Positions 35,620 through 54,489 are shown, counted from the first letter of the stretch. The stretch: DNA of 64,000 nucleotides from an uncultured bacterium (GCA_964527215.1 CAZGNZ010000001.1:129276-193275), one strand, 5' to 3'. Translations and numbers: made by a program. The notes: generated by a model from the letters alone, not told the origin.

Positions 35620-36786
35620 TTATTCCCGCCAGCCAGGCAGATCATCCGGATATTCAGCTTCGTCCGACTCGTGACAACCCTCGCAGGACGGCGGTTCACC
35701 AAAGTCTTCATCGATATGACAGTCTGAACAGTCCAGGTCTTCATGATCTTCGCTTAGAATAAGACCTGTAACCCCATGATCAAAGGATCCGGCCAGCCAG
35801 TGGATGTGACAGCTGGTACAGTTAACGGACGGTGAGGAAAAGTCCTTGACCGATCCATGGCAGCTTTCACAGGATACCCCGTCATGCCTTGGACTCAAAG
35901 GCCATCCGACTGAAACGGCGTGATCAAAAGCAGGCTTTTCTTCCATACTGTGGCAGAAGCCGCATTCCTGTTCAGAATTGCAGTTGGCGACGTGACATTT
36001 GCAGCAGCTGTTGCGGCACAACGCACAATCATCAACAGCCATGGTTTTCTCCGTGGGATTGATATGCTCCTCATGGCACTTCCGGCAGCCGTCCCCCTGA
36101 TGACAATCCACACACTGCAGACCGAACAGGTCAACATGATCTGTATGATGGAAAGTCACCACGGGCCCATCCTGGAGATGAGTGTGATAAATATATTTTT
36201 CTTCCGCGACGATTTTCGGATGATGAGTCATCCCCATAATATCCGATTTATCAACTGCAGCAGTTTTCCCGGAAGCATCGTCTGCAACTTCATGACAGAT
36301 ATTACACTCGGATTCATGGCTCCATTCACGGTGGCAGTTCAAACACTGCCGGTGGTAGGCGGCTTTCAGAGAAGGTTTCTGAATGCTGATGGAATCCCCT
36401 GTGGCATCATGGCATTCGCGGCACGGCGGTACCGGTTTATCCGGTTCCGAGAAGTGGTGGCATAACTCGCACCCACCGGACATATCCGACATTTCGGCAT
36501 GGAGTTTATGAGTAAAAAAGACGGGTTTGTACAGATTCGCAAGGTGATCCATGATAACTATTTCAGGTCCTTCGGTAATCTGATGCCGACCTTCAAAATG
36601 TCCCTCGTGGCGTGGACAATCAAGTAGGCAGGGATCTTCCTTCGTAGGCTGGTCACATACATGACATGTGGCACAATAGCGGTTCAGTGACTGTTTGTGG
36701 AAATCATCGTCGGTTCCGGCAGACCAAAGAAAACTGAGTACCGGAAGAAGCAGAGCTGCAGAGATTTTAATATTTGATTTACGCAT
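35620..36786 (-). CDS. Periplasmic multihaem cytochrome c, 13 CxxCH motifs (Hmc/Nhc-type partner of the FeS/NrfD module)
   Basis: It has a signal peptide (MRKSNIKISAALLLPVLSFLWSA). Hand-counted motifs are CATCH, CELCH, CRECH, CLNCH, CNICH, CVDCH, CRKCH, CCKCH, CGFCH, CESCH, CTSCH, CSDCH and CEGCH. The start overlaps the NrfD-like stop by 8 nt. Confidence 0.9.
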   Translation of the reverse strand: MRKSNIKISAALLLPVLSFLWSAGTDDDFHKQSLNRYCATCHVCDQPTKEDPCLLDCPRHEGHFEGRHQITEGPEIVIMDHLANLYKPVFFTHKLHAEMSDMSGGCELCHHFSEPDKPVPPCRECHDATGDSISIQKPSLKAAYHRQCLNCHREWSHESECNICHEVADDASGKTAAVDKSDIMGMTHHPKIVAEEKYIYHTHLQDGPVVTFHHTDHVDLFGLQCVDCHQGDGCRKCHEEHINPTEKTMAVDDCALCRNSCCKCHVANCNSEQECGFCHSMEEKPAFDHAVSVGWPLSPRHDGVSCESCHGSVKDFSSPSVNCTSCHIHWLAGSFDHGVTGLILSEDHEDLDCSDCHIDEDFGEPPSCEGCHESDEAEYPDDLPGWRE

Positions 36787-37993
36787 GTTTTTTGTGCTCC
36801 AATTCTTCTATCACTGGGAAATGAATGACAAAAAACCGGTATACCAGAATCAGCAGTGAAATGAATCCAACAGTGACCAGTATCTCGGTGATTGCAGGAA
36901 TATACCTGGACTCGGCATATGGGGGCTGATACCCGACGATGAATACATTGACCCGATTAAGGACCACACCAACTACGACTGCCGCAGCGCCGCTGAACAG
37001 CCAGATGATTTGTTTCCGAAATCTGCGGCTTGACAAAACCACAATGGGATATATCACGCCAATGAGCATCTCTGCATTGAAGAACCAGGACTCCACAGTT
37101 CCCTCAAGAACATAGTGAAAAGTCCCGCGGTTCACCATATCCAGAGTTTTGGCAAACAGATAAATCCACAGCAGCAGTGGCAGGTAACGGGCATACTGAC
37201 TTAAAATTGATATTTCCGGTTTCAATTTGAAAGACCATGATGCCAGCAGGGATTCAAAAATCACCATCGCGATTCCCACGGCAAAGGCGGACAGGAGAAA
37301 AAGGAGCGACAGAATGGGTGTGTGCCAGAGAGGGTGCAGTTTCGAAGGCACAATCACCATCAGCGTACCCAGCGAGCTTTGATGCATACAGGACAGCACC
37401 ACCCCCAAAATGATAAATATAAACATAGCCTTGCCGAATGTGTTGTCCAGGAATTTGAGCAGTCCTTCCGTGGCGTTATTCAGGCTCTTCATGATACCCG
37501 GAAGATTCACCCGTGATCGAAAGCGTTCAGTCAGAATGGGAATAAACTCAATATAAAGTACTGTCAGGTAACTGACAACACAGATGCCGACTTCAAACAA
37601 GGCTGAGTTGCCCTGCCACATTGAAGGAAGCAGAACATGCCATATCCAGTAGTAGCGACCGAGATCAATCACCACTCCCAAAGCCACAAAGGTATATCCC
37701 AGCATGGCAGTGAGCAGTGCCGGCCGGGTAAGTACCGCGTAGCGCTCGCGATGCATGATGTGGGCAATGAAGCTGGAGGTAAATCCACCGGCTGCAAGGG
37801 CCACACCGCAGGCCACATCAATCCCAATCCAGATACCCCACGGATACTGACCGTCAAGGTTCGTGGCAGCTTCAAGACTGAAAACAAAACGGTAGAATGC
37901 ACTGGCAAGCCCAAGGGCGGCCAGCGCAGTGAGAATCCAGACTCCAGGCGTAAAATAGGGGATACGTTTGACGGGGAGGACGGCAGTGGACAT
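36779..37993 (-). CDS. NrfD/PsrC-family integral membrane quinone-interacting subunit
   Basis: A 404-aa polytopic protein. …NLDGQYPWGIWIGIDVACGVALAAGGFTSSF… is the typical NrfD/HmcC/DsrP/ActC-type N-terminal signature. The ATG overlaps the FeS-subunit stop. Confidence 0.85.
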   Translation of the reverse strand: MSTAVLPVKRIPYFTPGVWILTALAALGLASAFYRFVFSLEAATNLDGQYPWGIWIGIDVACGVALAAGGFTSSFIAHIMHRERYAVLTRPALLTAMLGYTFVALGVVIDLGRYYWIWHVLLPSMWQGNSALFEVGICVVSYLTVLYIEFIPILTERFRSRVNLPGIMKSLNNATEGLLKFLDNTFGKAMFIFIILGVVLSCMHQSSLGTLMVIVPSKLHPLWHTPILSLLFLLSAFAVGIAMVIFESLLASWSFKLKPEISILSQYARYLPLLLWIYLFAKTLDMVNRGTFHYVLEGTVESWFFNAEMLIGVIYPIVVLSSRRFRKQIIWLFSGAAAVVVGVVLNRVNVFIVGYQPPYAESRYIPAITEILVTVGFISLLILVYRFFVIHFPVIEELEHKKHA

Positions 37994-38901
37994 TATTCTT
38001 CCTCCTTATTGTATAGTTTCATTGCCAGGCCCAGCAAACCGGCCAGAAGAATCGGTCCACTGAATCCTTTGAAAATACCATGCTGAATGGATTCAGTCAG
38101 GTGCGCGGGGCAGTCACTGGACAGTACCGGGAGGTCAACCTCCTCAAAGGGCACATTTGAGATGTACATCCAGCTGGTGCCGCCGACTTCATGTTCACCG
38201 TAAACATGATCCACATAGCGGTCCGGGTGTGTTCGAATACGTTCATGAGCGAGTTCAAGCAGCTCGCTCCTTTTTCCGAAAACCATCACTTCACGCGGGC
38301 AGATCGAAACGCAGGCCGGGAGTTCACCGGTTTCAATGCTCTGTTCAAAGCAAAGTCCGCATTTCATGACCTTGGGTGTCAGGGCATTGCTGTATTCATA
38401 CTGGGGAATTTGGAAGGGGCAGGCAACCATGCAGTAACGACAGCCGATACACTTGCTGGCGTCATATGTAACCGGCCCCTTCGGATTTTTTTCCAGAGCG
38501 CCTACAATACAGGCAGAAACACAAGCAGGATGCTCACAGTGCATGCACTGTACTTTTACATCCAGCGGGAAGCCGTCGATACCTTTTCCGGGATATCGGT
38601 TAACCACGGTGTACTGGTGGTCTGACGGCCGCCGAAATTCTTCCATAACAGAGGGATCGTCATACGAAGCAATGTCATCATGCGGCAGTCCATTGTTTTC
38701 TGCACATGCATATTCACATTTCCGACATCCGATACAAAGAGTCAGGTCAGACAGAACTCCTATCCTATCCGGATCAAGCATGGCATCATGCGTGGCCTTC
38801 TGGGCAGAAGTAATGTGCGTATTGGTGTGGGAAGGGACGGTGCTCGCTGCTGCAGTCCCGGATAAAAGTCCCACTGCCTTAAAGAATGATTTTCGATCCA
38901 T
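37993..38901 (-). CDS. Tat-exported 4Fe-4S ferredoxin-type subunit (NrfC/PsrB/HybA/HmcB-like) with a C-terminal TM anchor
   Basis: It has a Tat-like leader (MDRKSFFKAVGLLSGTAAAS, an RK variant). Cys clusters are CIGCRKCEYAC, CMHCEHPACVSAC, CIGCRYCMVACP and CGLC…CVSICP. The C-terminal helix is GPILLAGLLGLAMKL. Confidence 0.85.
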   Translation of the reverse strand: MDRKSFFKAVGLLSGTAAASTVPSHTNTHITSAQKATHDAMLDPDRIGVLSDLTLCIGCRKCEYACAENNGLPHDDIASYDDPSVMEEFRRPSDHQYTVVNRYPGKGIDGFPLDVKVQCMHCEHPACVSACIVGALEKNPKGPVTYDASKCIGCRYCMVACPFQIPQYEYSNALTPKVMKCGLCFEQSIETGELPACVSICPREVMVFGKRSELLELAHERIRTHPDRYVDHVYGEHEVGGTSWMYISNVPFEEVDLPVLSSDCPAHLTESIQHGIFKGFSGPILLAGLLGLAMKLYNKEEE

Positions 38902-38915: not shown

Positions 38916-40895
38916 TTACTTCCGGTTGTTTTCAGAAATATGTGACAGCTCTTTCATTTTCTTTAATTCGTTTTTTAAATCTCTTTCCATTTCTGCTTTG
39001 GCCTCTTCAACATAATCCGGATGCTCATGTGCATACATGTCTTCAGGCATCTTTCCGGTAAGCCATGACGGATTCATGGGATACACTTCCGGATTGAAAA
39101 CAGTCGAATAGAAATGCCAGATGGCAATAGCCAGTGTGGCAAGCCAGGCTTCCCAGTAGTGGACCACCAATGCCACATCCAGGACACCTTTCGGGAAAAA
39201 CTGAATAAAATAATTGTCAAACCACAGCAGCAGGCCGCTGACGATCATCACAACAGTACCCCAGACCAGCGCCCAGTATTCTGCTTTTTCAACGTAGCCG
39301 AATCTTTTAAACCGCGGAGATGTTTTTGACAGACCCAGATAAAATGCAATTCTGTGACCGAATTGAGTAAAATCAAGCAGTCTGGGCCACATATCCACAA
39401 GGAACTGGCGGCCGCGTCGGGTAAACAGAAAGATCGTGTGCCACAATACCGTTATAATAAACAGAACGGCAGCATAGCGATGGGCCAGACCGCGCATCTC
39501 AAATCCGCCTTCCCAACCGAAGAAGGTTTTTGCCATCCAGGACTCGCTGAAACGCAGTGAAAAACCGGTAATGACCAGTGCAATAAACGAAACCATTAAA
39601 AAAGTGTGCTGCCATACTTCATGCAGCTTCATTCGGCGAATTTGGGGTTTTTTGATGACAAGGCGAAGCTGGCGATACAGGTCCAGAATCCAGTGTATCA
39701 CCATAAAACCGATAATAATGACTATGGCAACGATATATATTTTTTCAACGATATCCGCCACGGTAGTCTGCAGACCTGTACCCGAAACACTGTGAATGGC
39801 AGTGCTGGCCAGTTTGGCCGAGATTCCGGGGTGACATTCACCACAGGTCGCTCTCAGATTGTTGGGGTGAACGGTTGAGCTGGGATCCGTGCTTGGCAGG
39901 ATTCGGTGGACGCCATGGCAGGATGCGCAGTTGGCTACATGCGTGTCGCCCGCCTTACTCTTTAATCCGTGATAAGAGTCAACAAAAGTATTCAGCCGTC
40001 CTGTCGGCAATCCGTATTTTTCATTAAGCCGGGTGGATTCATGGCAGGGAGAGCAGGTTGCTTCGGCAAGCCTTGCCGCGGATACGGGAGATCGGGGATC
40101 TGAGGGTGAAATAATGCCGTGTTCCCCGTGACAGTCCGTACAGACCGGGGCATCCGTTTCTCCTCTGTCAACCAGCTTACCGTGTATGCCGTCCATGAAA
40201 TCATTTTCGATTCCTCTATGACATTTTCCACAGGTCTGAGGAATATTGAAGTGATTTATTGCGGATTCAGGATGACCGGGTGAATAGATATGGTGCGAGC
40301 TGCCGCCTGAACTGTGACAGTCATCACAGGTTGCCGCGACATAAATCCCGCCTGTTGTGGCTTTTCCATGAACACTGTTGGAATACATTTCAACCGGATG
40401 CGACAAAAGCAGATCATACTGATTGATGAGGTCCAGGTTTTCGTGGCATCTTCCGCAGGTGGCGGGAAGATTGGTAGGATGCACCAGAGAATGCTTTATA
40501 TCCGGAGGCAGTACCTCGTGGGTGCCGTGGCAGTCAGCGCAGGAGGGGATATCTCCGCACTCCCCGACAATTTCACGTCCGTGAGCCTGATACTCTTCGG
40601 ACTGGTCATCATGGCAGGTTCGGCAGCCCTCACAGCCGACATCCAGATAGGCCTCTTCATGAGGGTAATACTCCTTATCCTGGTGACAGTCCTGACACTC
40701 AAGATCTTCATGGATGGAATGCGAAAGATCGTCTTGAATAACTGTCCCGTGAATTCCCGTTTCGTGACAGTCGCTGCATGAATCCGAATCAATTTCTTCA
40801 GCCTCTTCGCCAGCTGCCGGAAAAGCGAAACAGCCTAAAATGAGAGAAAAAAAGATCAGTAAACGGTGTGTATCGATTTGTTTGAGCAAGTGCAT
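38916..40895 (-). CDS. Fusion protein: 11-haem cytochrome c (periplasmic) plus C-terminal membrane b-type cytochrome domain (CbcL-like)
   Basis: It has a signal peptide and 11 CxxCH motifs (CSDCH…CGECH). These are followed by 4-5 TM helices with conserved His (…EVWQHTFLMVSFIALVITGFSLRF…AHRYAAVLFIITVLWHTIFLF…VHYWEAWLATLAIAIWHFY…). That region resembles the FdnI/HydC (Ni/Fe-hydrogenase b-type cytochrome) family. Confidence 0.85.
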   Translation of the reverse strand: MHLLKQIDTHRLLIFFSLILGCFAFPAAGEEAEEIDSDSCSDCHETGIHGTVIQDDLSHSIHEDLECQDCHQDKEYYPHEEAYLDVGCEGCRTCHDDQSEEYQAHGREIVGECGDIPSCADCHGTHEVLPPDIKHSLVHPTNLPATCGRCHENLDLINQYDLLLSHPVEMYSNSVHGKATTGGIYVAATCDDCHSSGGSSHHIYSPGHPESAINHFNIPQTCGKCHRGIENDFMDGIHGKLVDRGETDAPVCTDCHGEHGIISPSDPRSPVSAARLAEATCSPCHESTRLNEKYGLPTGRLNTFVDSYHGLKSKAGDTHVANCASCHGVHRILPSTDPSSTVHPNNLRATCGECHPGISAKLASTAIHSVSGTGLQTTVADIVEKIYIVAIVIIIGFMVIHWILDLYRQLRLVIKKPQIRRMKLHEVWQHTFLMVSFIALVITGFSLRFSESWMAKTFFGWEGGFEMRGLAHRYAAVLFIITVLWHTIFLFTRRGRQFLVDMWPRLLDFTQFGHRIAFYLGLSKTSPRFKRFGYVEKAEYWALVWGTVVMIVSGLLLWFDNYFIQFFPKGVLDVALVVHYWEAWLATLAIAIWHFYSTVFNPEVYPMNPSWLTGKMPEDMYAHEHPDYVEEAKAEMERDLKNELKKMKELSHISENNRK

Positions 40896-40920: not shown

Positions 40921-41385
40921 TCATGATGTGTCCGTACCAGTCGTGTATCTCAGGTACCGCTTTAAATTCCTATATGGTTCAAGATTTCGATATACCTCAC
41001 ATTCTCTGCAGCTGGATTTCGATAAACTGTCTGCAGCAAGCCAACAGGGCCCGGTGATTGATGTGACTGCACTGCACTGTGCATTGCCTCCAGAATTGCA
41101 TCCCCGAATATTCCAGCAGGGAATCAGTGCCAGGAGCGCTTTTATGCCGGCAATATTCAATCCCTGCTTTTCGATCAGGAAGCGAATATGGGTCAGGCGC
41201 TTAATATCGTTCACCGAATACAAACGATGTTTTGTCCTGGTCCGCTGTGTCAGTATCAGCCCGTTATTTTCATAAAGCCGAAGCGTGTGAACAGAAACCC
41301 CGATTATTTCCGCTGCTATTCCAATGGTAAAAACCGGATGGTCTTCTTCCAGCAGTTTATTTTCTTTGCGAGGTTTCAAATCCAT
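40921..41385 (-). CDS. MerR-family transcription regulator with a C-terminal Cys-rich two-CW-like domain (paralog 1)
   Basis: The HTH is …FTIGIAAEIIGVSVHTLRLYENNGLILTQRTRTKHRLYS…. The tail is …LALIPCWNIRGCNSGGNAQCSAVTSITGPCWLAADSLSKSSCRECEVYR…. I chose the ATG at 41385; the track's TTG at 41391 is possible. Confidence 0.8.
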   Translation of the reverse strand: MDLKPRKENKLLEEDHPVFTIGIAAEIIGVSVHTLRLYENNGLILTQRTRTKHRLYSVNDIKRLTHIRFLIEKQGLNIAGIKALLALIPCWNIRGCNSGGNAQCSAVTSITGPCWLAADSLSKSSCRECEVYRNLEPYRNLKRYLRYTTGTDTS

Positions 41386-41404
41386 CAACAATAAACTATA
41401 AAGT

Positions 41405-41545: not shown

Positions 41546-41570
41546 AAAAAGGGAGAGGTCGTCCTCTCCC
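41546..41570 (-). terminator. Rho-independent terminator downstream of the 1022-aa cytochrome gene
   Basis: On the minus strand it reads GGGAGAGG-ACGA-CCTCTCCC followed by TTTTTCATTTT. Confidence 0.65.
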
Positions 41571-45530: not shown

Positions 45531-45534
45531 ACCA

Positions 45535-48327: not shown

Positions 48328-48912
48328 TTATTTCTTTTTATCCTCCGGTGTGGGATGAGCGACTTCTTTGATACGCTCAGCAAAAACGAACTTTTTATAG
48401 GTCGGGCTTTTTTCATTGTGACAGGATATGCAAAGAGCTTCATTTGGTTCAATGAGACCCACAGAAGCGCCGTCAGTAGTGCCGACCGTAATGGCCTTCA
48501 TCACTTTTTTAGATTTATATTCACTGCCCGGACCGTGACAGCCTTCGCAGCCGACGCCTTTCAAACCGGTCATCCGCTTGACATCCTTGGTGGGCTTGCC
48601 TTTGTCCGTTGTCTGGGCCCAGAACTTTTCATCCTTCACCTCGAACCCGCCTGATCCAAAACCAGTCGCATGACAGGAGAGACATTCAGGTGCCTGCCAG
48701 GCCGGTACATTCAGTTTCATCTCTTCTGCAATCTTCTTTGACTGTTCGGATTTCAGGGTTTCCATTGCACCAATATGCAGACCTTTTTCCCAGGCACCAA
48801 ACTGGTGTTTATGGCACATTTTGCATTTGGCTGAACCAACATATTCAAACTTTGCATCCTGTGCCCACATGAATGGTACACAGAGCAAAAAAAGTATCCA
48901 AAATCGTTTCAT
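48328..48912 (-). CDS. Tetrahaem cytochrome c, cytochrome c554-like
   Basis: MKRFWILFLLCVPFMWAQ is a signal peptide, followed by …VGSAKCKMCHK…W…H. Motifs are CKMCH, CLSCH, CEGCH and CISCH. I trimmed the start from the track (49026) to the ATG at 48912, which gives a proper signal peptide. Confidence 0.85.
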   Translation of the reverse strand: MKRFWILFLLCVPFMWAQDAKFEYVGSAKCKMCHKHQFGAWEKGLHIGAMETLKSEQSKKIAEEMKLNVPAWQAPECLSCHATGFGSGGFEVKDEKFWAQTTDKGKPTKDVKRMTGLKGVGCEGCHGPGSEYKSKKVMKAITVGTTDGASVGLIEPNEALCISCHNEKSPTYKKFVFAERIKEVAHPTPEDKKK

Positions 48913-48938: not shown

Positions 48939-49370
48939 TTAGAAAATGGGATTTTCCGCCCCATGGCACTGATGGCAGCCCATGGCAACTGGTCCATCGC
49001 TGTTTAGACTGTGGCACTGCCAGCATGTTTCCGCCTGGTCCTCGGAACCGTTGGGATCCATCCCTGCGCCGTGAAAATCATCAGTTCCGGATCTCAGATG
49101 ATCGATGGTACCCGGGTGGCCGCTGGCACCTCCGGCATGACACATGGTACATGAAACACCGGAATGTCCGCCATCCAGAAAAGTACCGTGACAGGTCTTG
49201 CATGACTCGAGTCCTTCCCAACCACGGGTCGCAAGCATCTGGCCGTGAAAATCAACACTGTTTTGATTCATCCAGGTGTCGCTGTGGGTATCTGGCTGAA
49301 CAGATTCAGTACAGGACCAGAAGCTCAGAGCGGTGACGATCAAAATGGTTAACGCGGTATATCTTTTCAT
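48939..49370 (-). CDS. Small tetrahaem cytochrome c lipoprotein
   Basis: MKRYTALTILIVTALSFWSC is a lipobox-type signal. Motifs are CKTCH, CTMCH, CWQCH and CHQCH. A GGAGG Shine-Dalgarno sits 6 nt upstream. The start was trimmed from the track (49466), and it lies directly after the upstream stop. Confidence 0.85.
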   Translation of the reverse strand: MKRYTALTILIVTALSFWSCTESVQPDTHSDTWMNQNSVDFHGQMLATRGWEGLESCKTCHGTFLDGGHSGVSCTMCHAGGASGHPGTIDHLRSGTDDFHGAGMDPNGSEDQAETCWQCHSLNSDGPVAMGCHQCHGAENPIF

Positions 49371-49371
49371 A

Positions 49372-50199
49372 TTAACCTCCATGACAGCGTTGGCAGTAGT
49401 GCGGCTGATGACAGGACTGACATACTTCGGGTGTGGATTCTGCGGCATCTGCATGCATTCCCGCATTGCCGTTGATTATGCCCCAGGTTGTCAGATTGTG
49501 ATCGGCTGGCATAATCATCCGCTGTATGTGACAGGACTGACAGTCATTTTCAATTTGATGGCAGGTCATGCATTCAACTGCATCCAGCCGGGCTTCCAAT
49601 CCGTGAGCCACAATATAGGCCGGTGGATGAGTACTTTTTTCAAAACCCGAATGGTGATGACAGTCATCGCAGAATTTTTCCGTATGGCACATGCTGCAGC
49701 TGGCGGCCTGCGGGTGATTGACGGACAGACCGTGGTCCTCATCCCAGGTGATGTCATGGCTGGCAGGTTCATGTGACTGATGGCATTGTGAACAGGCTGC
49801 CCTTGGCCATGGCTGGCGCAGCGCTTCACCGTCATCTGAGGTGATTCCGCTGTGGCAGGTTTCACAATTTGGTGTGGATGGCCGGTGTGCGGCATGGGAA
49901 AAGTCCACGCCGGATGTGGATCCCATCAGGGGATATGTGTCGGCCTCATCCACATTGGAATGGCATAGTTCACATTCATCTTCCACATCGTGACATTCGG
50001 AGCAGAAATCCATATCCGGCAGATATCCCGGTGTGAGAGATTCAGAGTCTGAAACACCGCTGTGACAGTAGTCGCAGGATAGTTCGACATCCGTAATATG
50101 AAGATCATGCGGAAATATGATGTGATCCGGATCCATTGAGAATCCGTAAGCCGCTAACAAGCTGACTGTCAGCAATGCTTTACAGAGTATACGAAACAT
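49372..50199 (-). CDS. Periplasmic 11-haem cytochrome c (c3/c7-type packing)
   Basis: MFRILCKALLTVSLLAAYG is a signal peptide. There are 11 CxxCH motifs in 275 aa (CDYCH, CSECH, CELCH, CETCH, CSQCH, CSMCH, CDDCH, CMTCH, CQSCH, CQSCH, CQRCH). A GGAGG Shine-Dalgarno precedes the gene, which overlaps the barrel-gene 3' end by 20 nt. Confidence 0.85.
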   Translation of the reverse strand: MFRILCKALLTVSLLAAYGFSMDPDHIIFPHDLHITDVELSCDYCHSGVSDSESLTPGYLPDMDFCSECHDVEDECELCHSNVDEADTYPLMGSTSGVDFSHAAHRPSTPNCETCHSGITSDDGEALRQPWPRAACSQCHQSHEPASHDITWDEDHGLSVNHPQAASCSMCHTEKFCDDCHHHSGFEKSTHPPAYIVAHGLEARLDAVECMTCHQIENDCQSCHIQRMIMPADHNLTTWGIINGNAGMHADAAESTPEVCQSCHQPHYCQRCHGG

Positions 50200-51358
50200 T
50201 GATACCTCCTCGACCGTCTTCATCATAATATGGGTTTTCAATATACATTCCATATACCTGGAAACTGAGATGGGCACAGGGTCTCCAGTTCAGTCTCAGC
50301 TGGGCACCAATGGTGTCCCGGGCTTCTATCAGATCGTCATAATCATAAGAATTCAGCGAGATACCCGCATTGGCACTGATGGTTTGGGTGATGTGTCGAT
50401 TTAATCCGGCAAACCAGCCAAGATTCTGATAATCACCGGATTGGCTGCTGATCAGACCAAACTGCAGACAGCGCCACTGAATGCTGCTGCTGAAACCCAT
50501 ATTGGTATCATCAGACATGCGGTATATCAGGCGATTGTACAGGGCAAACTCTGCAATCCTGCTTTGTACTCCAGCAGACAGCGTGGGGGCGACCAGAAGG
50601 TCTTCATCCAGTCCCGGGAATACATTTTCCGTGAAAATCTGACGCTGTTTTAAACTCAAAATCAATTCATGCTGATTGAACTGCCGGCTGAGTCTGAAAC
50701 GCATTGAATGGATATTTTCATCAGTCACATTGAATGAAAATTTGGCCCGGTAGCTGAAGGAAAGCAAATTCCGGCCGTTCAGTGAACCGCCGATAATCAG
50801 TGGGTCATCCAGTTCATCGTTGTCATACAGATAACTGATTACATTCAATCCAAATCCCATTCCACCGTCAGTTCCGGCTGTCCAGTCGGCTGCCATAAAC
50901 ATGGTTGGATCTTCTTCGGTCTCTGCAAACTGCGGGATCGATCCACCGCTCACTCCCAGCTTGCCGAATTTTCCCAGACACATGCTGTAACGGGCGCCGT
51001 CATACTTGGTGTTCGCAAATGAATTCCAGTAGTTGAGCCGCCCCAGATTCAATGTGCCGAATTTGCTGTACAGGGAAACATCAGCACTGTGAATCTGAAA
51101 TTCGTCGGTAAAGCGGTAATTCGGGGAGCCGTAGGACAAATCGGTTTTAAAGGAAACAAGACTGCCGTAGGACTGCTGATAGGATAGAAAGGTCCGGTAG
51201 TGAACAGTGTCATCCAGTGCATCTGAGCGGTACAGGTCGCCGGAGGTGTCGTTGAACATGTTCAGCCGGGGGGTGATCATGCTTTGGGTGATCGTGAGAT
51301 TCGGACCTCCGGCAAATCCAATCCCCGCAATGATGAGCAATACAAAAATTCTTTTCAT
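50180..51358 (-). CDS. Outer-membrane beta-barrel (porin-like) protein
   Basis: It has a signal peptide (MKRIFVLLIIAGIGFAGG). Alternating-polarity strands rich in Y/G/S/N run throughout (…YGSLVSFKTDLSYGSPNYRFTDEFQIHSADVSLYSKFGTLNLGRLNYW…). There are no Cys or haem motifs. The start was trimmed from the track. Confidence 0.7.
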   Translation of the reverse strand: MKRIFVLLIIAGIGFAGGPNLTITQSMITPRLNMFNDTSGDLYRSDALDDTVHYRTFLSYQQSYGSLVSFKTDLSYGSPNYRFTDEFQIHSADVSLYSKFGTLNLGRLNYWNSFANTKYDGARYSMCLGKFGKLGVSGGSIPQFAETEEDPTMFMAADWTAGTDGGMGFGLNVISYLYDNDELDDPLIIGGSLNGRNLLSFSYRAKFSFNVTDENIHSMRFRLSRQFNQHELILSLKQRQIFTENVFPGLDEDLLVAPTLSAGVQSRIAEFALYNRLIYRMSDDTNMGFSSSIQWRCLQFGLISSQSGDYQNLGWFAGLNRHITQTISANAGISLNSYDYDDLIEARDTIGAQLRLNWRPCAHLSFQVYGMYIENPYYDEDGRGGINVSYTL

Positions 51359-51443: not shown

Positions 51444-52394
51444 TTATTCGTAGGTGTAGTCGAACGAACCAGGCCAATTGTGGGATGTCAGATCATCAAA
51501 AATCATTGAATTGACACCAAATTTCAGGCTGGTGGCATCGTAACCGAGAACGGTCAGATAAGCGGTGATCATGGAAGATGTCTGTCCTGTCCAGCAGTAG
51601 GTGACTATGGTTTCATCGGGATTCAGATATTCCATTCCACCGGCGGCCAGGGTCAAGTCTTCTTTTATGCGGTGTGAACCTTCGATATGTCCGTAAAGAT
51701 CGACATCGGAAGCTCCCCAGTAGTTATTGATAAAATAAGCACCGGGATCATCCAGAACATCGCTGTACAAAATACCTTTGAATCCACCGGCCAGCATGGC
51801 TTCCACCCGCTCCTCAAGCAGGGCAGCACCATCAGCTGTGGAAGATTCCCAGTCAGGATAACCATATTCCATATCACTGGCGATATTGATGGATCCGGGA
51901 TATACCCAGGTATCATAACCGGATGCGCCATAACCCGTTTTACTGGACCAATTATCAAAATCAGAATGCCAGCTGCTCATTCCAAATTTCAGGACCTGAG
52001 CGCTGTAGCCCATGAGGCGCAGTGCCACAACAGCATGTCCGGCGGATTGCCCGGTATAGCAGACCACCAGAATATCTTCGCTGCCGGCGGGTTCGGCATC
52101 GTCAAGAATGGTGGCCAGTGAGCCATTGTGGGCTCCCGGGATATGACCGGTAGCAAAGACTTCAGCACTGCGGATATCAATGATGTAATAATCTTCAGGC
52201 AGACGGGCCAGATTCACCGCATCAGCAGCGACAATCCAGTCGGCCAGAATATCATCCATATCCATGTTATTGGCTTCCAGATAGGTCATCAGCGTGTTGA
52301 AATCACCTTTGTCGTCATCATCATCATCGGAACATCCGCTGAAGATGAACAGGCTCAGCACCAGTAACGGCAGGATATATTTCAAGCTTTTCAT
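51444..52394 (-). CDS. Periplasmic/outer-leaflet lipoprotein with two rhodanese (sulfurtransferase) domains
   Basis: It has a lipobox (LSLFIFSGC) and a poly-Asp linker. There are two GlpE-type active-site loops: …ILVVCYTGQSAGHAV… and …IVTYCWTGQTSSMITA…. Confidence 0.8.
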   Translation of the reverse strand: MKSLKYILPLLVLSLFIFSGCSDDDDDDKGDFNTLMTYLEANNMDMDDILADWIVAADAVNLARLPEDYYIIDIRSAEVFATGHIPGAHNGSLATILDDAEPAGSEDILVVCYTGQSAGHAVVALRLMGYSAQVLKFGMSSWHSDFDNWSSKTGYGASGYDTWVYPGSINIASDMEYGYPDWESSTADGAALLEERVEAMLAGGFKGILYSDVLDDPGAYFINNYWGASDVDLYGHIEGSHRIKEDLTLAAGGMEYLNPDETIVTYCWTGQTSSMITAYLTVLGYDATSLKFGVNSMIFDDLTSHNWPGSFDYTYE

Positions 52395-52435: not shown

Positions 52436-54046
52436 TCAGTTTACATGACAGGCCGATGTGCCGCACTCACCGCCGGCGGTGGGCATCACCGTCATGTTTG
52501 CTTCAATTTCATTCGGGTAATTGTTTTCAATGTAATCCATTGTGAGATAGATATCTTTATTTGCGGGATCACTATAGGTGTCCCCGGTATGATAATGACA
52601 GTTGGCGGCACAGGTTGTACCGTCGTAAAGAGGGGTATCACTTTCCGCCCAGGCATCATCCACCAGTGTCTGAGCAGTCCACTTGCGAACGTTGTGAGGG
52701 CTGGTGTATTCCCAGGTTTCAAACTGATTAAAATGGTTTTCCGGAAGTTCAGTCAGTCCGACTCCCCAGGCATCATAGGTATCTCGGGCAACAGGAATAT
52801 GCCTGACAAGGACCCAGCGGCTGTCGGCGTGTGCCAGCAGTGAGGGTGAGTAGTCTCCGGTGGGGTCATCGTGAGCCGGATTGTAGCCAATGCGAAATTC
52901 AGGATATTCAAGATAATCCCCGGCACCGGAATTGACATCGTCCTGACCGGCTACCGGACCGTAGCCGTCTTTCCAGATACCGGTTGTATGACAGTTATTA
53001 CAGTTATAATAAGGTTGTGAATGACAAACATAGCATGAAATATCATCGGCAAAATTATCACCGGGCCAATGTGCCTGGTGGTATAGGTTGCTGTCCGCCA
53101 GCGAAGGGCTGTGACATGCTGCATCGGTACACGTAGGCAGATCGTTGACAGTATACCGTGAGATGGGAGGATTGGCAAGTTCCGTTCCATCCCCGTGCAA
53201 ATCTTCATTGTGACAGGCCGTACAGGTATATCCTTTTCCCAGATGGACATCTTTCAGATTGCCAGTGATGCCGTCGTCGTCACCTTCATCGCCGAAATAA
53301 TCGACACCGATCCGGCTGCCGTGACAGGCGGTGCAGTTGTTTCGGAGCTCAGGTTCTCTTTTAAACTCATGATCTGCGAGAAAACCGCCGTGGACCGATT
53401 CCGGTCGACTGACATGACACTGACCGCAGGTGGTGTGACAGCTACCGCATTCACCTTCAAATTCTGCTTCCACCTCAGGATGATTGGAGAGATCCGGTTC
53501 ACCAAATGCACGCATTCCCACTTTGAATCTTTCACCCCAGAGTTTGGTGTGCATACTGTGTTCGTTCCGCTCAACAATATCCGTATGGCACAGACCGCAG
53601 GTTTCTTCAGGTGCGGCAGAAGGATCGCGTATCATTTCGGTATGTGCCAGTTCCATTGCGGCATGCCGGTCTTCCGAAGAAGTGGAAGCCGCCGTCACAA
53701 ACTGGGTTCCGCCGTGACAGCCGGCACAGCCAAGAACGGCATGGGTGGGATCAACATCATCAAATCCGGATTCGGAACTTTTCAAATCAATGAAAACTTT
53801 TTCCCAGGGTGCCAACGGCACCACAGCTCCGCCTCAGCCACCGCCACCGGCAGTTCCGCCACCCTCGTCAGGTGCAAGTTGCTGAAGTACTGCCTCATTG
53901 ATATGGCAGCTTTCGCAGGAAAAATCAAGGGTGTCGACATCAGTCTGTCCGACAGGATCGATTTTTTCACACGCTGAATATATTAAAAGCACCGGCGCAA
54001 TCCACAGCAGGATCAAAAACCCGGGCATCAACGAGGATCGATTCAT
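52436..54046 (-). CDS. Lipoprotein multihaem cytochrome c (9 CxxCH, 1 CX3CH and 2 CX4CH motifs) interrupted by one in-frame TGA at 53834-53836
   Basis: The 70-aa ORF (lipobox LLIYSAC, CESCH) and the 462-aa ORF (no signal peptide, 8 CxxCH) share one frame. They read …GGGTAGGGG-TGA-GGAVVPLAPWEK…. The ATG overlaps the MerR stop as ATGA. The gene is intact only if the UGA is recoded or read through; otherwise it is a pseudogene. Confidence 0.6.
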
Positions 54047-54489
54047 TTTCTGACCTCTTTGTTAGTGAATTCAAAGATTTGCTTAAGATGACCAACTTCA
54101 ATTGCAAGCCTATATACTTCGCACTTGTGACAGTCTGCATTCTGACATGTCTCACCGGTTACCTCCTGTGCCCAGCAAACCGTGTCGTTGGACATATAGG
54201 CAGGGCATTCAAGACGCTCCTCTTCTCCGCATGGCTTGATATTCCAGCACGGGATGAGTGCCAGCAAACGTCTGATACCGGCAATATTCAATTTGTTTTC
54301 CGTGATCTGACGCCGAATACATGCGATCCATTCCAAATCTATCTCGGAATACAATCGCCGCCCGGTTTCAGTACGATGGGGGATGAGCAGACCTTCCCGT
54401 TCATACAATCGCAAAGTTTCCGGAGAAATATCGAATTTTCTGGAAACCACACCGATTGTGTACAATGGTTCACTGGGATCCATCTTCAT
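54043..54489 (-). CDS. MerR-family transcription regulator with a C-terminal Cys-rich two-CW-like domain (paralog 2)
   Basis: The HTH is …YTIGVVSRKFDISPETLRLYEREGLLIPHRTETGRRLYS…. The tail is …LALIPCWNIKPCGEEERLECPAYMSNDTVCWAQEVTGETCQNADCHKCEVYR…. An AGGTGG Shine-Dalgarno lies upstream. Confidence 0.8.
   Translation of the reverse strand: MKMDPSEPLYTIGVVSRKFDISPETLRLYEREGLLIPHRTETGRRLYSEIDLEWIACIRRQITENKLNIAGIRRLLALIPCWNIKPCGEEERLECPAYMSNDTVCWAQEVTGETCQNADCHKCEVYRLAIEVGHLKQIFEFTNKEVRK

What the first reader, a model, noticed from the sequence alone, without database searches (positions are those of the whole stretch)
35620..54489. A 19-kb two-module multihaem-cytochrome supercluster reads as a complete quinone-pool-to-cell-surface electron conduit in a non-proteobacterial (FCB-like) genome
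Seen in the sequence:
- All genes between 35620 and 54489 are on the minus strand.
- Eight of them encode c-type cytochromes carrying 78 canonical CxxCH motifs by my hand count (13, 11, 9, 17, 4, 4, 11 and 9).
- Inner-membrane entry or exit points are present three times: two multihaem-c::cytochrome-b fusions, and a Tat-FeS plus NrfD pair.
- There are soluble periplasmic multihaem relays (13-haem, 11-haem and c554-like).
- An outer-membrane barrel is followed by a periplasmic multihaem cytochrome and a lipoprotein cytochrome.
- A tandem-rhodanese lipoprotein is present.
- A 9-haem protein carries a T9SS sorting tail.
- Each module is headed by its own MerR/Cys-rich regulator.

Established knowledge: extracellular electron transfer (EET) in Geobacter (CbcL/ImcH, PpcA, Pcc OmbB-OmaB-OmcB) and Shewanella (CymA, MtrCAB) uses exactly these functional layers.

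Inference: this locus encodes a self-contained EET, or extracellular mineral/sulfur redox, pathway built from a different parts list (T9SS display, rhodanese, MerR-two-CW control). I do not recognise this combination as a described system. The direction of electron flow (reduction of Fe/Mn/S minerals versus oxidation of an extracellular donor) cannot be read from the sequence.
Basis: partly seen in the sequence, partly recalled or inferred. Interest (0 to 1): 0.9.

Follow-up and report, generated by a model that had tools for sequence, protein, structure and literature searches.

The report
Selenocysteine cytochrome–rhodanese sulfur-respiration cluster
The 19-kb block of 14 genes with 78 haem-binding sites is real, and its conserved core is an undescribed selenium-containing cytochrome paired with a sulfur-carrier enzyme, which suggests that abundant uncultured marine bacteria (Marinimicrobia) use it to respire sulfur compounds rather than only to wire themselves to minerals.

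Summary
There are fourteen minus-strand genes and eight c-type cytochromes with exactly 78 CxxCH motifs. Also present are two multihaem::cytochrome-b fusions, an HmcB/HmcC-like FeS+NrfD pair, a predicted 22-strand outer-membrane barrel, a tandem-rhodanese lipoprotein, a T9SS-tailed cytochrome and two Cys-rich MerR regulators.

The first cytochrome is split by an in-frame TGA (53834-53836). That TGA is conserved in at least 75 of about 80 species-level genomes, is followed by a covarying SECIS-like hairpin, and is replaced by Cys in one homologue. The gene therefore encodes a selenocysteine lipoprotein cytochrome.

This family occurs at 541 genomic loci, mostly in Neomarinimicrobiota. It matches no Pfam/NCBIfam family-level model and no solved structure. 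It is unrelated in sequence to Geobacter MccSep.

It is almost always followed by the double-active-site rhodanese, and copies that lack the Sec site lack the rhodanese too. The barrel, the 11-haem cytochrome and the 4-haem lipoprotein cytochrome accompany it in about a third of loci. The cytochrome-b fusions do so in about a quarter. The T9SS cytochrome never does.

The closest described system is Geobacter extHIJKLMNOPQS/MccSep (S0/polysulfide respiration), which resembles it in layout but not in sequence. The best reading is a quinone-linked sulfur (chalcogen) respiratory system with a porin-cytochrome-like outer-membrane module. I rate it a new variant of a known kind.

The parts
54043..54489 (-). 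MerR-family regulator 2 (148 aa), first gene of module 2. It has an N-terminal HTH and a C-terminal domain with six invariant Cys.
   Evidence: PF13411 hit, E=4.9e-18. Found upstream of the Sec-cytochrome in 45/74 loci. C81, C87, C95, C105-W106, C120 and C123 are invariant in 50 homologues. Its stop overlaps the next gene's start by 4 nt.
52436..54046 (-). Selenocysteine-containing lipoprotein multihaem cytochrome (536 aa, U71). It has 9 CxxCH plus Cx4CH (residue 306), Cx3CH (479) and Cx4CH (528).
   Evidence: Two ORFs in one frame joined by TGA. The family gives 2352 hits and 541 genomic loci. No family model and no solved relative were found.
53834..53836 (-). In-frame TGA read as selenocysteine, in the motif GGGG-U-GG.
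   Evidence: TGA sits at the same aligned site in at least 75 of about 80 loci from several phyla, and TGC (Cys) in L050/P0023. TGA is an ordinary stop for 19 of 41 long ORFs in the window.
53808..53822 (-). SECIS-like hairpin GGUGCC-GUU-GGCACC, starting 14 nt after the first base of the UGA.
   Evidence: Six-pair helix with 36 double-change cells against 12.8±2.5 in shuffles (0/500), and at most 15 when the partner is slid.
51444..52394 (-). Tandem-rhodanese lipoprotein (316 aa) with two active-site loops (CYTGQS, CWTGQT) and an acidic stretch C-SDDDDDD after the lipid cysteine.
   Evidence: PF00581 found twice. It is adjacent to the Sec-cytochrome in 66/73 loci. Of 65 homologues, 62 have a lipobox, 57 have an acidic N-terminus and 54 have two catalytic loops. 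SDDDD is the Bacteroides fragilis surface-export signal.
50180..51358 (-). Outer-membrane beta-barrel (392 aa with signal peptide), predicted to have 22 strands and short loops.
   Evidence: AlphaFold on a 7-sequence alignment gives pLDDT 71 and 22 strands. The best Foldseek matches are the FimD usher and Occ/AlgE barrels. The family has only 37 representatives among 1.84 billion proteins. A KSB1-like homologue is detectable only by hhalign, at 96% probability.
49372..50199 (-). Periplasmic 11-haem cytochrome (275 aa, Sec-type signal peptide) built of c7-type modules.
   Evidence: 11 CxxCH. PDB sequence hits to ActA and to GSU1996-type and PpcA-type c7 domains. It co-occurs with the barrel in 21/21 loci.
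48939..49370 (-). Small 4-haem lipoprotein cytochrome (143 aa).
   Evidence: 4 CxxCH. Lipobox ...FWSC-TES; homologues carry a conserved C-T-[EK]-x-x-E-P-x-[MI]-H-P motif. Present in 22/59 loci.
48328..48912 (-). c554-like tetrahaem periplasmic cytochrome (194 aa).
   Evidence: PF13435 hit, E=1.2e-16. Present in 19/59 loci. Gene call of 194 aa in L084.
48266..48307 (-). Terminator-like 19-bp-stem hairpin just after the c554 gene.
   Evidence: Consensus scan only.
45594..48095 (-). 17-haem c-type domain fused to an FdnI/HydC-type cytochrome b (833 aa). This is a CbcL-like quinone-pool module.
   Evidence: 17 CxxCH. PF01292 and TIGR01583 hits. TM segments predicted. Present in 14/47 loci. A terminator-like hairpin lies at 45532-45555.
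41815..44883 (-). 9-haem secreted cytochrome (1022 aa) with dockerin-like and FlgD-Ig domains and a T9SS type-A sorting tail. It appears to be its own transcription unit and is specific to this lineage.
   Evidence: Pfam/NCBIfam hits. The haem domain matches 6i5b (OcwA) and 6qvm. It is flanked by gaps of 710 and 423 nt and a terminator-like hairpin at 41550-41571. Present in 0/47 related loci, with no JGI relatives.
40921..41391 (-). MerR-family regulator 1 (paralogue of regulator 2, with the same Cys pattern). It heads module 1.
   Evidence: PF13411 hit, E=2.6e-17. Aligned with the MerR2 family.
38916..40895 (-). 11-haem c-type domain fused to an FdnI-type cytochrome b (659 aa). This is the second CbcL-like module.
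   Evidence: It is highly conserved, scoring up to about 1095 bits in related loci, and directly follows the 17-haem fusion in L009, L011, L036, L051, L054 and L057.
37993..38901 (-). HmcB/HybA-like four-cluster FeS protein with a Tat-like (RK) signal and a C-terminal TM anchor.
   Evidence: NF045715 at 328 bits (cut-off 420) and NF008134 at 246 bits (cut-off 263). TM segment at residues 276-294.
36779..37993 (-). NrfD-family integral membrane subunit (HybB/HmcC-like, 9 or more TM segments).
   Evidence: PF03916. NF008133 at 332 bits (cut-off 450) and NF045714 at 264 bits (cut-off 550). TM segments predicted.
35620..36786 (-). 13-haem periplasmic cytochrome with an HmcA/nine-haem-type c3 domain. 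It is probably the cytochrome subunit of the Hmc/Nhc-like complex.
   Evidence: 13 CxxCH. PDB sequence hits to HmcA (2e84, E=1.2e-15) and nine-haem cytochromes.

Best explanation
The locus encodes a respiratory system for sulfur (chalcogen) compounds. Its catalytic core is a lipoprotein multihaem cytochrome carrying one selenocysteine (9 canonical plus 2-3 non-canonical haem sites), working with a lipoprotein tandem rhodanese that has two active cysteines.

Proposed mechanism (inferred):
1. The rhodanese binds sulfane sulfur from S0/polysulfide as a cysteine persulfide.
2. It presents that sulfur to the selenocysteine loop of the cytochrome.
3. The selenolate attacks the S-S bond.
4. The haem chain then reduces the Se-S intermediate and releases sulfide.

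Electrons come from menaquinol through the two multihaem::cytochrome-b fusions (CbcL-like) and the Hmc/Nhc-like FeS-NrfD-13-haem complex. The c554-like cytochrome relays them across the periplasm.

In this genome, and in about a third of relatives, there is also a 22-strand barrel, an 11-haem wire-like cytochrome and a small lipoprotein cytochrome. Together they form a porin-cytochrome-type outer-membrane module that could carry electrons to the cell surface, so that poorly soluble S0 can be used there. The rhodanese carries a Bacteroidota-type surface-export signal.

The Cys-rich MerR regulators probably switch the operons on in response to redox state or sulfur species. The T9SS-tailed cytochrome is a lineage-specific add-on.

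Shown: the gene content, selenocysteine recoding, co-conservation, and the link between the Sec site and the rhodanese. Inferred: the substrate, the reductive direction, the protein localisation, and the barrel acting as a cytochrome sheath.
For: Selenocysteine:
- A conserved in-frame TGA lies within coding sequence that is conserved on both sides.
- A Cys homologue exists.
- The downstream hairpin covaries.
- TGA is otherwise a stop in this window.

Coupling to rhodanese:
- The rhodanese is adjacent in 66/73 loci.
- Loci with the Sec/Cys site have an adjacent rhodanese in 64 of 66 cases. Loci without the site have one in 1 of 6 (Fisher p = 9e-6, not corrected for phylogeny).
- Both rhodanese domains keep the catalytic CxxGQ[ST] loop in 54/65 homologues.

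Haem ligands: the family has 11 conserved haem motifs but only 10 conserved extra histidines and no spare conserved cysteine. The selenocysteine is therefore the only candidate special ligand or nucleophile.

Precedent: Geobacter MccSep is a multihaem selenoenzyme that reduces polysulfide. It is required for S0 respiration and is encoded next to a rhodanese lipoprotein and a porin.

Quinone link:
- PF01292 cytochrome-b domains are fused to multihaem domains here.
- They occur as separate genes (338-aa cytochrome c plus 230-aa cytochrome b) in barrel-less loci such as L015.

Outer-membrane module:
- The barrel model has 22 strands.
- The barrel strictly co-occurs with the 11-haem cytochrome (21/21).
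- The same five-gene cassette occurs in a KSB1-like genome.

Habitat: the record titles of related loci come from Saanich Inlet, the Black Sea, a sulfidic cave and Guaymas. Marinimicrobia are suspected of an unspecified dissimilatory sulfur metabolism.
Against: - No protein here is detectably homologous to MccSep, and no Ext-family model matched the barrel or the rhodanese. The functional transfer is by analogy only.
- The Sec-cytochrome and the 4-haem lipoprotein lack the acidic export signal, so their side of the outer membrane is unknown.
- About two thirds of related loci have no barrel detectable by phmmer (38/59), although the method misses divergent barrels. The core enzyme may therefore act in the periplasm on a soluble substrate.
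- FdnI-type cytochromes b can work in either direction.
- Rhodaneses have many roles.
- The AlphaFold models are only of moderate confidence (pLDDT 71-72).
- No expression or biochemical data are available.
Confidence: 0.5

Rival explanations
1. The locus is a self-contained conduit for extracellular electron transfer to Fe(III)/Mn(IV) minerals or electrodes. The cytochromes act purely as wires and the surface cytochromes act as terminal metal reductases.
For: - A barrel, a periplasmic 11-haem cytochrome and a lipoprotein cytochrome occur in Pcc gene order.
- CbcL-like fusions are present.
- The haem domain of the T9SS-tailed cytochrome resembles the surface reductases OcwA (6i5b) and 6qvm.
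- Geobacter extHIJKL alone supports partial Fe and Mn oxide reduction.
Against: - The only universally conserved parts are a selenocysteine cytochrome and an active rhodanese, and neither is needed for metal reduction.
- The T9SS cytochrome is absent from all 47 related loci.
- Many loci have no detectable barrel.
- There is no homology to MtrB/PioB, OmbB or MtrC-family models at family level.
Confidence: 0.15
2. A Geobacter-like topology. The selenocysteine cytochrome is a periplasmic polysulfide (or selenite/tellurite) reductase. The barrel is a substrate channel that admits polysulfide captured by the surface rhodanese. It is not a cytochrome sheath, and the other cytochromes only feed the periplasmic enzyme.
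For: - MccSep is periplasmic, and ExtI is needed for selenite/tellurite reduction.
- The Sec-cytochrome lacks a Bacteroidota-type surface-export signal while the rhodanese has one.
- Barrel-less loci still keep the cytochrome-rhodanese pair and a cytochrome c/b quinol module.
Against: - A 22-strand barrel with short loops and no plug is much wider than an anion channel needs to be (moderate confidence).
- The barrel never occurs without the 11-haem wire-like cytochrome and nearly always occurs with the small lipoprotein cytochrome. A plain porin would not require either.
Confidence: 0.2
3. The opposite direction. The system oxidises sulfide, S0, polysulfide or thiosulfate, either extracellular or periplasmic. 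It passes the electrons through the multihaem chains to the FdnI-type cytochromes b, which reduce menaquinone. This would feed aerobic or nitrate/N2O respiration.
For: - FdnI/HydC-type cytochromes b normally reduce quinone with periplasmic electrons (established knowledge; domain hits).
- One carrier of the full cluster, NIOZ-UU73 (L018), prefers the less reduced part of the Black Sea water column, and a sulfur-oxidising lifestyle was suggested for it.
- His/Cys-haem enzymes such as TsdA and SoxAX work oxidatively.
Against: - The only characterised multihaem selenoenzyme works reductively.
- CbcL-type fusions are assigned to quinol oxidation in Geobacter (from my own knowledge, not tested here).
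- No Sox, Dsr or Sqr genes are in the window.
Confidence: 0.2
4. This is not one system. The 19 kb holds at least three independent respiratory units that happen to be neighbours: the selenocytochrome operon, the T9SS cytochrome, and the CbcL-like plus Hmc-like operon.
For: - Intergenic gaps of 232, 710 and 423 nt and three terminator-like hairpins divide the region into four transcription units.
- The T9SS cytochrome and the Hmc-like trio are rarely or never found with the core elsewhere.
Against: - The 17-haem and 11-haem cytochrome-b fusions directly follow the c554 gene in at least ten other genomes.
- HmcB follows in L009 and L012, and the whole Hmc-like trio lies 4.5 kb from the core in L082.
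- Both units here are headed by paralogous MerR regulators with the same six-Cys pattern.
Confidence: 0.25

Closest known systems
Geobacter sulfurreducens extHIJKLMNOPQS cluster, including MccSep (ExtKL; PDB 9wt8)
   Same: One cluster holds a rhodanese-family lipoprotein next to an outer-membrane barrel, a multihaem cytochrome split by an in-frame UGA with a SECIS-like hairpin (a selenoprotein), further multihaem cytochromes, and a membrane cytochrome b that links to the quinone pool.
   Different: - There is no detectable sequence similarity. The Sec-cytochrome and its family profile do not hit MccSep in the PDB sequence set even at E<=10, nor NF040886.
- It has 9-12 haem sites where MccSep has 5.
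- Its Sec lies near the N-terminus in G-U-GG. In MccSep it lies at residue 325 in D-G-U-P.
- It is a lipoprotein; MccSep is soluble.
- It has no conserved haem-ligating Cys.
- Its rhodanese has two catalytic domains.
- It has FdnI-type cytochrome-b fusions where the Geobacter cluster has Rieske/cytochrome b (ExtOP).
- It includes an 11-haem periplasmic cytochrome and a lipoprotein cytochrome in Pcc order.
- It has a MerR regulator where Geobacter has LysR or TetR.
Porin-cytochrome conduits (Geobacter OmbB-OmaB-OmcB, ExtABCD; Shewanella MtrCAB)
   Same: The gene order is barrel, then periplasmic multihaem cytochrome, then lipoprotein multihaem cytochrome. The barrel is predicted to be large (22 strands). 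The periplasmic partner is densely packed with haem (11 haems in about 250 residues).
   Different: - No family-level homology to MtrB/PioB, MtrA/DmsE or MtrC/OmcA. The hits are only generic haem-module similarities below the curated cut-offs.
- The lipoprotein cytochrome is very small (4 haems).
- The module is embedded in an operon headed by a selenocytochrome and a rhodanese.
Geobacter CbcL (multihaem c fused to a HydC/FdnI-type dihaem b)
   Same: The same two-domain architecture occurs twice (11-haem and 17-haem versions).
   Different: The haem numbers differ. Orthology to GSU0274 was not tested. In relatives without a barrel the two domains are separate genes.
Desulfovibrio Hmc / Nhc transmembrane complexes
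   Same: There is an HmcB-like FeS subunit, an HmcC-like NrfD subunit, and a cytochrome with an HmcA/nine-haem-type c3 domain.
   Different: All scores fall below the NCBIfam equivalog cut-offs. There are 13 haems. No HmcDEF-like cytochrome-b or cytoplasmic subunits are encoded.
Wolinella succinogenes Sud-PsrABC polysulfide respiration
   Same: A periplasmic rhodanese-type sulfur carrier serves a quinol-linked polysulfide reductase (established knowledge; cited for Psr).
   Different: There is no molybdopterin subunit here. The proposed catalyst is a selenocysteine multihaem cytochrome.
OcwA (Thermincola, 6i5b) and the 6qvm surface multihaem cytochrome
   Same: The haem domain of the T9SS-tailed protein shows local similarity to both (E=1e-9 over 39 residues; E=8e-4 over 210 residues).
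   Different: The T9SS protein has a sorting tail, a dockerin-like domain and Ig-like domains, and it comes from a diderm FCB-type organism. No paper in the searched library combines type IX secretion with multihaem cytochromes.

Membership tests
Bacterial selenoprotein (UGA-Sec recoding) | An in-frame UGA conserved among orthologues, with conserved coding sequence on both sides. | tested here: met
   TGA sits at the same aligned site in at least 75 of about 80 loci. The N-terminal lipoprotein signal and CxxCH motif are conserved upstream, and VxPLxxWEKV downstream.
Bacterial selenoprotein (UGA-Sec recoding) | Homologues with Cys at the Sec position. | tested here: met
   P0023/L050 has TGC (PG-C-GGEVVPL). 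Some homologues lack the site altogether (P0038 has Asp).
Bacterial selenoprotein (UGA-Sec recoding) | A SECIS stem-loop just downstream of the UGA. | tested here: met
   The hairpin starts at +15. It shows 36 compensatory cells against 12.8±2.5 in shuffles (0/500), and slid controls give at most 15. A second clade uses a shifted register.
Bacterial selenoprotein (UGA-Sec recoding) | UGA is not globally reassigned, and the Sec machinery (selABCD) is present in the genome. | tested here: inconclusive
   TGA terminates 19 of 41 long ORFs in the window. No tRNA-Sec or sel genes lie in the window, and the rest of the genome is not available.
MccSep / ExtKL family (NF040886) | Sequence homology: five conserved CxxCH motifs, a Cys-ligated haem 2, and Sec in a D-G-U-P loop of a C-terminal Ig-like domain. 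| tested here: not met
   No hit to 9wt8/9wt9 with the single sequence or the 73-sequence profile at E<=10. No NF040886 hit. Haem number and Sec position both differ (one search compared).
Geobacter ext(HIJKL) cluster architecture | A rhodanese lipoprotein, an outer-membrane barrel and a Sec-cytochrome in one cluster. | tested here: met
   compared. This is architecture only.
Geobacter ext(HIJKL) cluster architecture | Homology of the barrel to ExtI and of the rhodanese to ExtH. | not testable with these tools
   No ExtH or ExtI sequence was available. No Ext-family NCBIfam model matched the barrel or the rhodanese at E<=10.
Porin-cytochrome conduit (Pcc/Mtr type) | A large outer-membrane barrel (20-26 strands) encoded next to a periplasmic multihaem cytochrome and a lipoprotein multihaem cytochrome. 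| tested here: met
   The model has 22 strands (pLDDT 71). The neighbours are an 11-haem protein with a type-I signal peptide and a 4-haem lipoprotein. The barrel and the 11-haem cytochrome co-occur in 21/21 loci.
Porin-cytochrome conduit (Pcc/Mtr type) | Family-level homology to MtrB/PioB, OmbB, MtrA/DmsE or MtrC/OmcA. | tested here: not met
   The barrel hits no Pfam or NCBIfam family. DmsE and OmcA/MtrC models score far below their cut-offs.
Porin-cytochrome conduit (Pcc/Mtr type) | The cytochrome is inserted in the barrel, with a haem protein exposed at the cell surface. | not testable with these tools
   Needs a complex structure or protease shaving. The 4-haem lipoprotein lacks a Bacteroidota-type export signal.
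CbcL-type quinone oxidoreductase | An N-terminal periplasmic multihaem c domain fused to a C-terminal FdnI/HydC-type cytochrome b (PF01292). | tested here: met
   Both the 659-aa and the 833-aa proteins fit this.
CbcL-type quinone oxidoreductase | Orthology to G. sulfurreducens GSU0274. | not tested
   No reference sequence was at hand.
Hmc / Nhc complex | HmcB- and HmcC-equivalent subunits plus a c3-family high-molecular-weight cytochrome. | tested here: inconclusive
   HmcB model 328 bits (cut-off 420). HmcC model 264 bits (cut-off 550). HybB model 332 bits (cut-off 450). One HmcA-type domain is present in the 13-haem protein. No HmcDEF.
T9SS cargo (type A C-terminal domain) | A C-terminal Por_Secre_tail domain scoring above the curated cut-off. 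| tested here: met
   TIGR04183 at 40.8 bits (cut-off 23) and PF18962 at 32.1 bits (cut-off 27).
Active rhodanese sulfurtransferase | A catalytic Cys in a six-residue active-site loop. | tested here: met
   CYTGQS and CWTGQT in the two domains. Two such loops occur in 54/65 homologues.
MerR family regulator | An N-terminal winged-helix MerR HTH. | tested here: met
   PF13411 above its cut-off for both proteins. The effector is unknown. Six Cys are invariant.

The most novel reading that the evidence does not exclude
The G-U-GG cytochrome is a second, independently evolved family of multihaem selenoenzymes, possibly with a selenocysteine-ligated or selenocysteine-gated haem. Together with its dedicated double-active-site rhodanese it would be the missing dissimilatory sulfur enzyme of Marinimicrobia and several other uncultured phyla in oxygen-minimum and euxinic waters. 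In the barrel-containing version it would be powered through a new, non-Mtr/non-Pcc porin-cytochrome conduit, so that solid S0 is respired at the cell surface.
Probability: 0.3. Interest if true: 0.85.

Novelty: new variant of a known kind. Interest (0 to 1): 0.72.

Why it matters
Marinimicrobia (SAR406) are among the most abundant heterotrophs in oxygen-deficient ocean water. They have long been suspected of an unspecified dissimilatory sulfur metabolism, on the weak basis of psr-like genes.

This locus offers a concrete and widely distributed candidate. It occurs at 541 loci in species-level genomes. Gene callers systematically split it at the UGA, so it is invisible to routine annotation.

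It would also be a second multihaem selenoenzyme family, only weeks after the first (MccSep) was characterised. That would suggest that selenium-plus-haem chemistry on S-S bonds evolved more than once.

The work yields testable predictions:
- selenium content of the protein;
- polysulfide reductase activity that depends on U71 and on the rhodanese;
- expression along sulfide/S0 gradients.

Tried and rejected
1. MccSep homology. A single sequence and a 73-sequence profile were searched against PDB sequences that include 9wt8/9wt9. There was no hit at E<=10, so membership is rejected.
3. Ext-family or MtrB/PioB assignment of the barrel. No Pfam or NCBIfam hit appeared even at E<=10. Foldseek shows only generic barrels.
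4. Word-indexed homologue searches for the barrel returned 3 and 5 proteins. The exhaustive search gave 37 representatives. As a result the structure prediction had to use a 7-sequence alignment.
5. UGA reassignment (Gly or Trp codes) as an explanation for the in-frame TGA. Rejected because TGA ends 19 of 41 ORFs in the window and a Cys homologue exists.
6. T9SS cytochrome as part of the conserved system. Rejected, with 0/47 loci and only a tail-only match in JGI metagenomes.
7. Source organism. The exact-protein look-up found only Logan contigs without taxonomy. The genome is not a GTDB species representative. The best relative is 54% identical and is a Neomarinimicrobiota MAG from Saanich Inlet. 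The phylum assignment is therefore an inference.
8. Literature searches for a prior description of this family gave nothing. I tried Marinimicrobia with multihaem, selenocysteine or rhodanese; selenoprotein with multihaem; and type IX secretion with multihaem cytochrome.
9. An operator search upstream of the two MerR genes found only unrelated palindromes.

Full report
**1. What is in the sequence**

Between 35620 and 54489 every long ORF lies on the minus strand. Translating them and counting motifs gives 13, 11, 9, 17, 4, 4, 11 and 8 CxxCH.

The last protein (ORF 52436-53824) has no signal peptide. Immediately upstream, in the same frame, lies a 70-aa ORF (53834-54046). It encodes a lipoprotein signal peptide and one more CxxCH, and it is separated from the larger ORF only by a TGA.

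A six-frame count finds 78 CxxCH in the region and 5 in the remaining 45 kb. There are none in 12,676 residues of the other long ORFs.

Domain searches confirm the rest of the list:
- two multihaem c domains fused to FdnI/HydC-type cytochrome b;
- an HmcB/HybA-like FeS protein with a Tat-like RK signal;
- an NrfD-family HmcC/HybB-like membrane protein;
- a 13-haem protein with an HmcA/nine-haem-type domain;
- a c554-like tetrahaem cytochrome;
- a tandem-rhodanese lipoprotein;
- a 1022-aa 9-haem protein with a type-A T9SS tail above the curated cut-offs;
- two MerR regulators with Cys-rich tails.

An AlphaFold model (pLDDT 71) gives 22 antiparallel strands with short loops. Its best Foldseek matches are large barrels such as the FimD usher.

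Gaps of 232, 710 and 423 nt and three terminator-like hairpins divide the region into four probable transcription units.

The rest of the window holds housekeeping genes and a capsule locus, so this is ordinary chromosomal context.

**2.

The in-frame TGA (53834-53836) lies in the motif GGGG-TGA-GG-A-VVPLAPWEKVFI.

Distant relatives were first found through the barrel, which is 27% identical to theirs. They carry the same interruption with the same flanking residues.

A scan of one genome per species found 541 loci encoding relatives of this cytochrome, and the best 80 were retrieved. In these, TGA occupies the aligned site in at least 75. One has TGC (Cys; P0023/L050), and a few lack the site.

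A hairpin (GGUGCC-GUU-GGCACC, 53808-53822) begins 14 nt after the first base of the UGA. On 34 distinct sequences its six pairs show 36 double-sided changes, against 12.8±2.5 in shuffles (0 of 500 reach the observed value). Slid controls give at most 15. The amino acids encoded on the two arms change together (V/A, V/E, A/E, E/A), as expected if the RNA structure is under selection.

TGA is a normal stop for 19 of 41 long ORFs in the window, including this gene's own stop, so the code is not reassigned.

Together these are the standard bioinformatic criteria for a bacterial selenoprotein. Gene callers split the gene into 70-aa and 462-aa products, which is why databases hold only N-terminally truncated products.

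**3. What the family is**

The word-indexed search returned 2352 relatives. Named ones are mostly Candidatus Marinimicrobia (Neomarinimicrobiota). Others come from KSB1, Krumholzibacteriia, Eisenbacteria, Deferribacteres-like, Fibrobacteres-like and deltaproteobacterial MAGs.

The source genome is not a species representative. Its closest relative is a Saanich Inlet Neomarinimicrobiota MAG at 54% identity. 'FCB-like' is therefore supported, but by inference.

The family has eight invariant CxxCH motifs in the part after the Sec. It also has an invariant site that is Cx4CH in the window and CxxCH in P0023, and a nearly invariant Cx3CH. The N-terminal CxxCH brings the total to 11 haem sites. A twelfth, C-terminal Cx4CH occurs in some members.

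Only ten further histidines are conserved, and there is no conserved cysteine outside the haem motifs. The selenocysteine is therefore the only candidate for an unusual haem ligand or catalytic nucleophile. This step is inference.

The family has no specific Pfam or NCBIfam model. In the passages I searched of a 2026 review of prokaryotic selenoproteins, the only cytochrome entries are ExtKL, a GSU2204-family protein, UshA-like proteins and an octahaem tetrathionate reductase.

Neither the sequence nor a 73-sequence profile matches any PDB chain. An AlphaFold model of the Cys-type homologue (pLDDT 72) has no Foldseek match.

**4. What travels with it**

I searched six-frame ORFs of the 80 genome loci with the window's proteins.

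| Partner | Loci with it / loci with enough flank |
|---|---|
| Rhodanese immediately adjacent | 66/73 |
| Cys-rich MerR upstream | 45/74 |
| Barrel | 21/59 |
| 11-haem cytochrome | 26/59 (present in all 21 barrel loci) |
| 4-haem lipoprotein cytochrome | 22/59 |
| c554-like cytochrome | 19/59 |
| 17-haem cytochrome-b fusion | 14/47 |
| 11-haem cytochrome-b fusion | 12/47 |
| Hmc-like genes | 1-3/47 |
| T9SS cytochrome | 0/47 |

- In at least ten genomes the order is MerR, Sec-cytochrome, rhodanese, barrel, 11-haem, 4-haem, c554, 17-haem::b, 11-haem::b. In L009 HmcB follows.
- The barrel count is an underestimate. A KSB1-like locus has the five-gene cassette with a barrel that only hhalign recognises (96% probability).
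- A second common layout has no detectable barrel. It runs MerR, Sec-cytochrome, rhodanese, a 286-aa multihaem cytochrome, a 338-aa membrane-anchored multihaem cytochrome and a separate 230-aa cytochrome b.
- The barrel family itself is small, with 37 representatives among 1.84 billion proteins.
- The T9SS cytochrome has no relatives in JGI metagenomes beyond its tail.

**5. The rhodanese and its link to the selenocysteine**

Of 65 adjacent rhodaneses, 62 have a lipobox and 54 keep the catalytic CxxGQ[ST] loop in both domains. In 57, three or more acidic residues follow the lipid cysteine.

The window's C-SDDDDDD matches the SDDDD lipoprotein export signal of Bacteroides fragilis, which drives surface exposure in Bacteroidota. 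Whether that rule applies in Marinimicrobia is unknown. The Sec-cytochrome (C-E-K-I-D here, C-D-P-G or C-D-A-I elsewhere) and the 4-haem lipoprotein (C-T-E-S) lack such a signal.

Loci with the Sec/Cys site have an adjacent rhodanese in 64 of 66 cases. One of the two exceptions is a frame artefact. Copies without the site have one in 1 of 6 cases, and that one sits behind another copy's rhodanese (Fisher p = 9e-6, not phylogenetically corrected). This is the strongest evidence here that the selenocysteine and the sulfur carrier work together.

**6. Comparison with what is known**

Geobacter sulfurreducens extHIJKLMNOPQS encodes the following:
- a rhodanese lipoprotein (ExtH);
- a porin-like 21-strand protein (ExtI);
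- a small protein (ExtJ);
- a cytochrome split by UGA (ExtKL);
- 12-haem, 10-haem and 4-haem cytochromes;
- a Rieske protein and a cytochrome b.

In August 2026 ExtKL was characterised as MccSep. It is a periplasmic pentahaem selenoenzyme that reduces polysulfide and, less efficiently, selenite. It uses a Cys-ligated haem and Sec325, and it is required for S0 respiration.

It is an analogue and not a relative. MccSep is present in the PDB sequence set yet is not hit at E<=10. The haem number, Sec position, lipidation and cytochrome-b type all differ. The window's system also has Pcc-like components that the Geobacter cluster lacks: an 11-haem periplasmic wire made of c7-type modules and a lipoprotein cytochrome.

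Other resemblances are at domain level only:
- CbcL for the fusions;
- Hmc/Nhc for the FeS-NrfD-13-haem trio, with all scores below equivalog cut-offs;
- OcwA and 6qvm for the T9SS protein's haem domain.

**7. Most likely mechanism**

I commit to a sulfur (chalcogen) respiratory system.

Menaquinol is oxidised by the cytochrome-b fusions and the Hmc-like complex. Electrons then pass through c554 and the multihaem domains to the selenocysteine cytochrome, which reduces sulfane sulfur delivered by the rhodanese. Where the barrel, the 11-haem cytochrome and the 4-haem lipoprotein are present, electrons can also cross the outer membrane, so that surface-bound or solid sulfur can be used.

Gene content, recoding and co-conservation are shown. 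Substrate, direction, localisation and the sheath role of the barrel are inferred. My confidence is about 0.5.

The rivals are:
- a periplasmic enzyme with the barrel as a polysulfide channel, as proposed for Geobacter;
- the oxidative direction, because FdnI-type cytochromes b usually reduce quinone and the cluster-bearing MAG NIOZ-UU73 (L018) favours less reduced water;
- generic metal EET;
- a juxtaposition of independent units.

None is excluded.

**8. Novelty and verdict**

The kind of system became known in 2018-2026: a multihaem selenoenzyme with a rhodanese and an outer-membrane barrel, linked to the quinone pool. This is a new variant built from non-homologous parts. It contains what appears to be an undescribed selenoprotein family and an undescribed barrel family, and it is concentrated in an abundant uncultured marine phylum whose sulfur metabolism is an open question.

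Its claim that the combination is undescribed, and its inclusion of the T9SS display layer, are not supported.

Noticed in passing
window 19557-22758: A tandem array of 7 units of about 435-509 bp (TRF: period 458, 4.5 copies, 74% matches). It lies in a 3.3-kb stretch with no ORF of 150 aa or more except 21325-21786, and it has the strongest GC skew of the window (-0.26). The array sits between two glycosyltransferase genes of a capsule locus. Two sub-threshold Rfam matches to Acido-Lenti-1 RNA (28 bits against a gathering score of 37) lie at 20531-20576 and 21956-22001. Its nature is unknown.
   Followed up: partly
window 55347-63994 (minus strand): Directly upstream of the cluster lie two genes. 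One encodes a 1030-aa signal-peptide protein with no family, possibly a large outer-membrane protein. The other encodes a surface protein of at least 1850 aa with DUF11 repeats, CarboxypepD_reg, Big_1 and two OmpA domains. No homologues of the 1030-aa protein were found near the cytochrome core in other genomes.
   Followed up: partly
L044, L045, L064, L078, L082, L083 (downstream of the Sec-cytochrome): In several non-Marinimicrobia lineages the adjacent rhodanese is doubled to about 630-820 aa, with three or four catalytic loops.
   Followed up: no
L028 9992-14248: One Neomarinimicrobiota genome carries two paralogues of the cytochrome flanking the rhodanese. The first has the TGA site and the second has no Sec/Cys site.
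   Followed up: no
L015 14911-19694: Barrel-less loci continue with a membrane-anchored cytochrome, two NHL-repeat proteins and a 691-aa multihaem cytochrome. They may therefore hold a different outer-membrane or extracellular module.
   Followed up: no
protein hits P0046, P0050, P0057, P0103, P0114, P0120: JGI names several truncated homologues of the Sec-cytochrome 'thiosulfate/3-mercaptopyruvate sulfurtransferase', although they contain only cytochrome sequence. The name was probably carried over from the neighbouring rhodanese.
   Followed up: no
window 4534-4590: A 19-bp unit repeated three times (92% matches) in the intergenic region upstream of the tsaD-like gene.
   Followed up: no
L001-L003 (13140-15122 in L001): In the most distant barrel-containing relatives a 660-aa NapC/NirT-like multihaem protein replaces the 17-haem fusion. 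A system II cytochrome c maturation operon (ResB/CcsA) lies next to the cluster.
   Followed up: no
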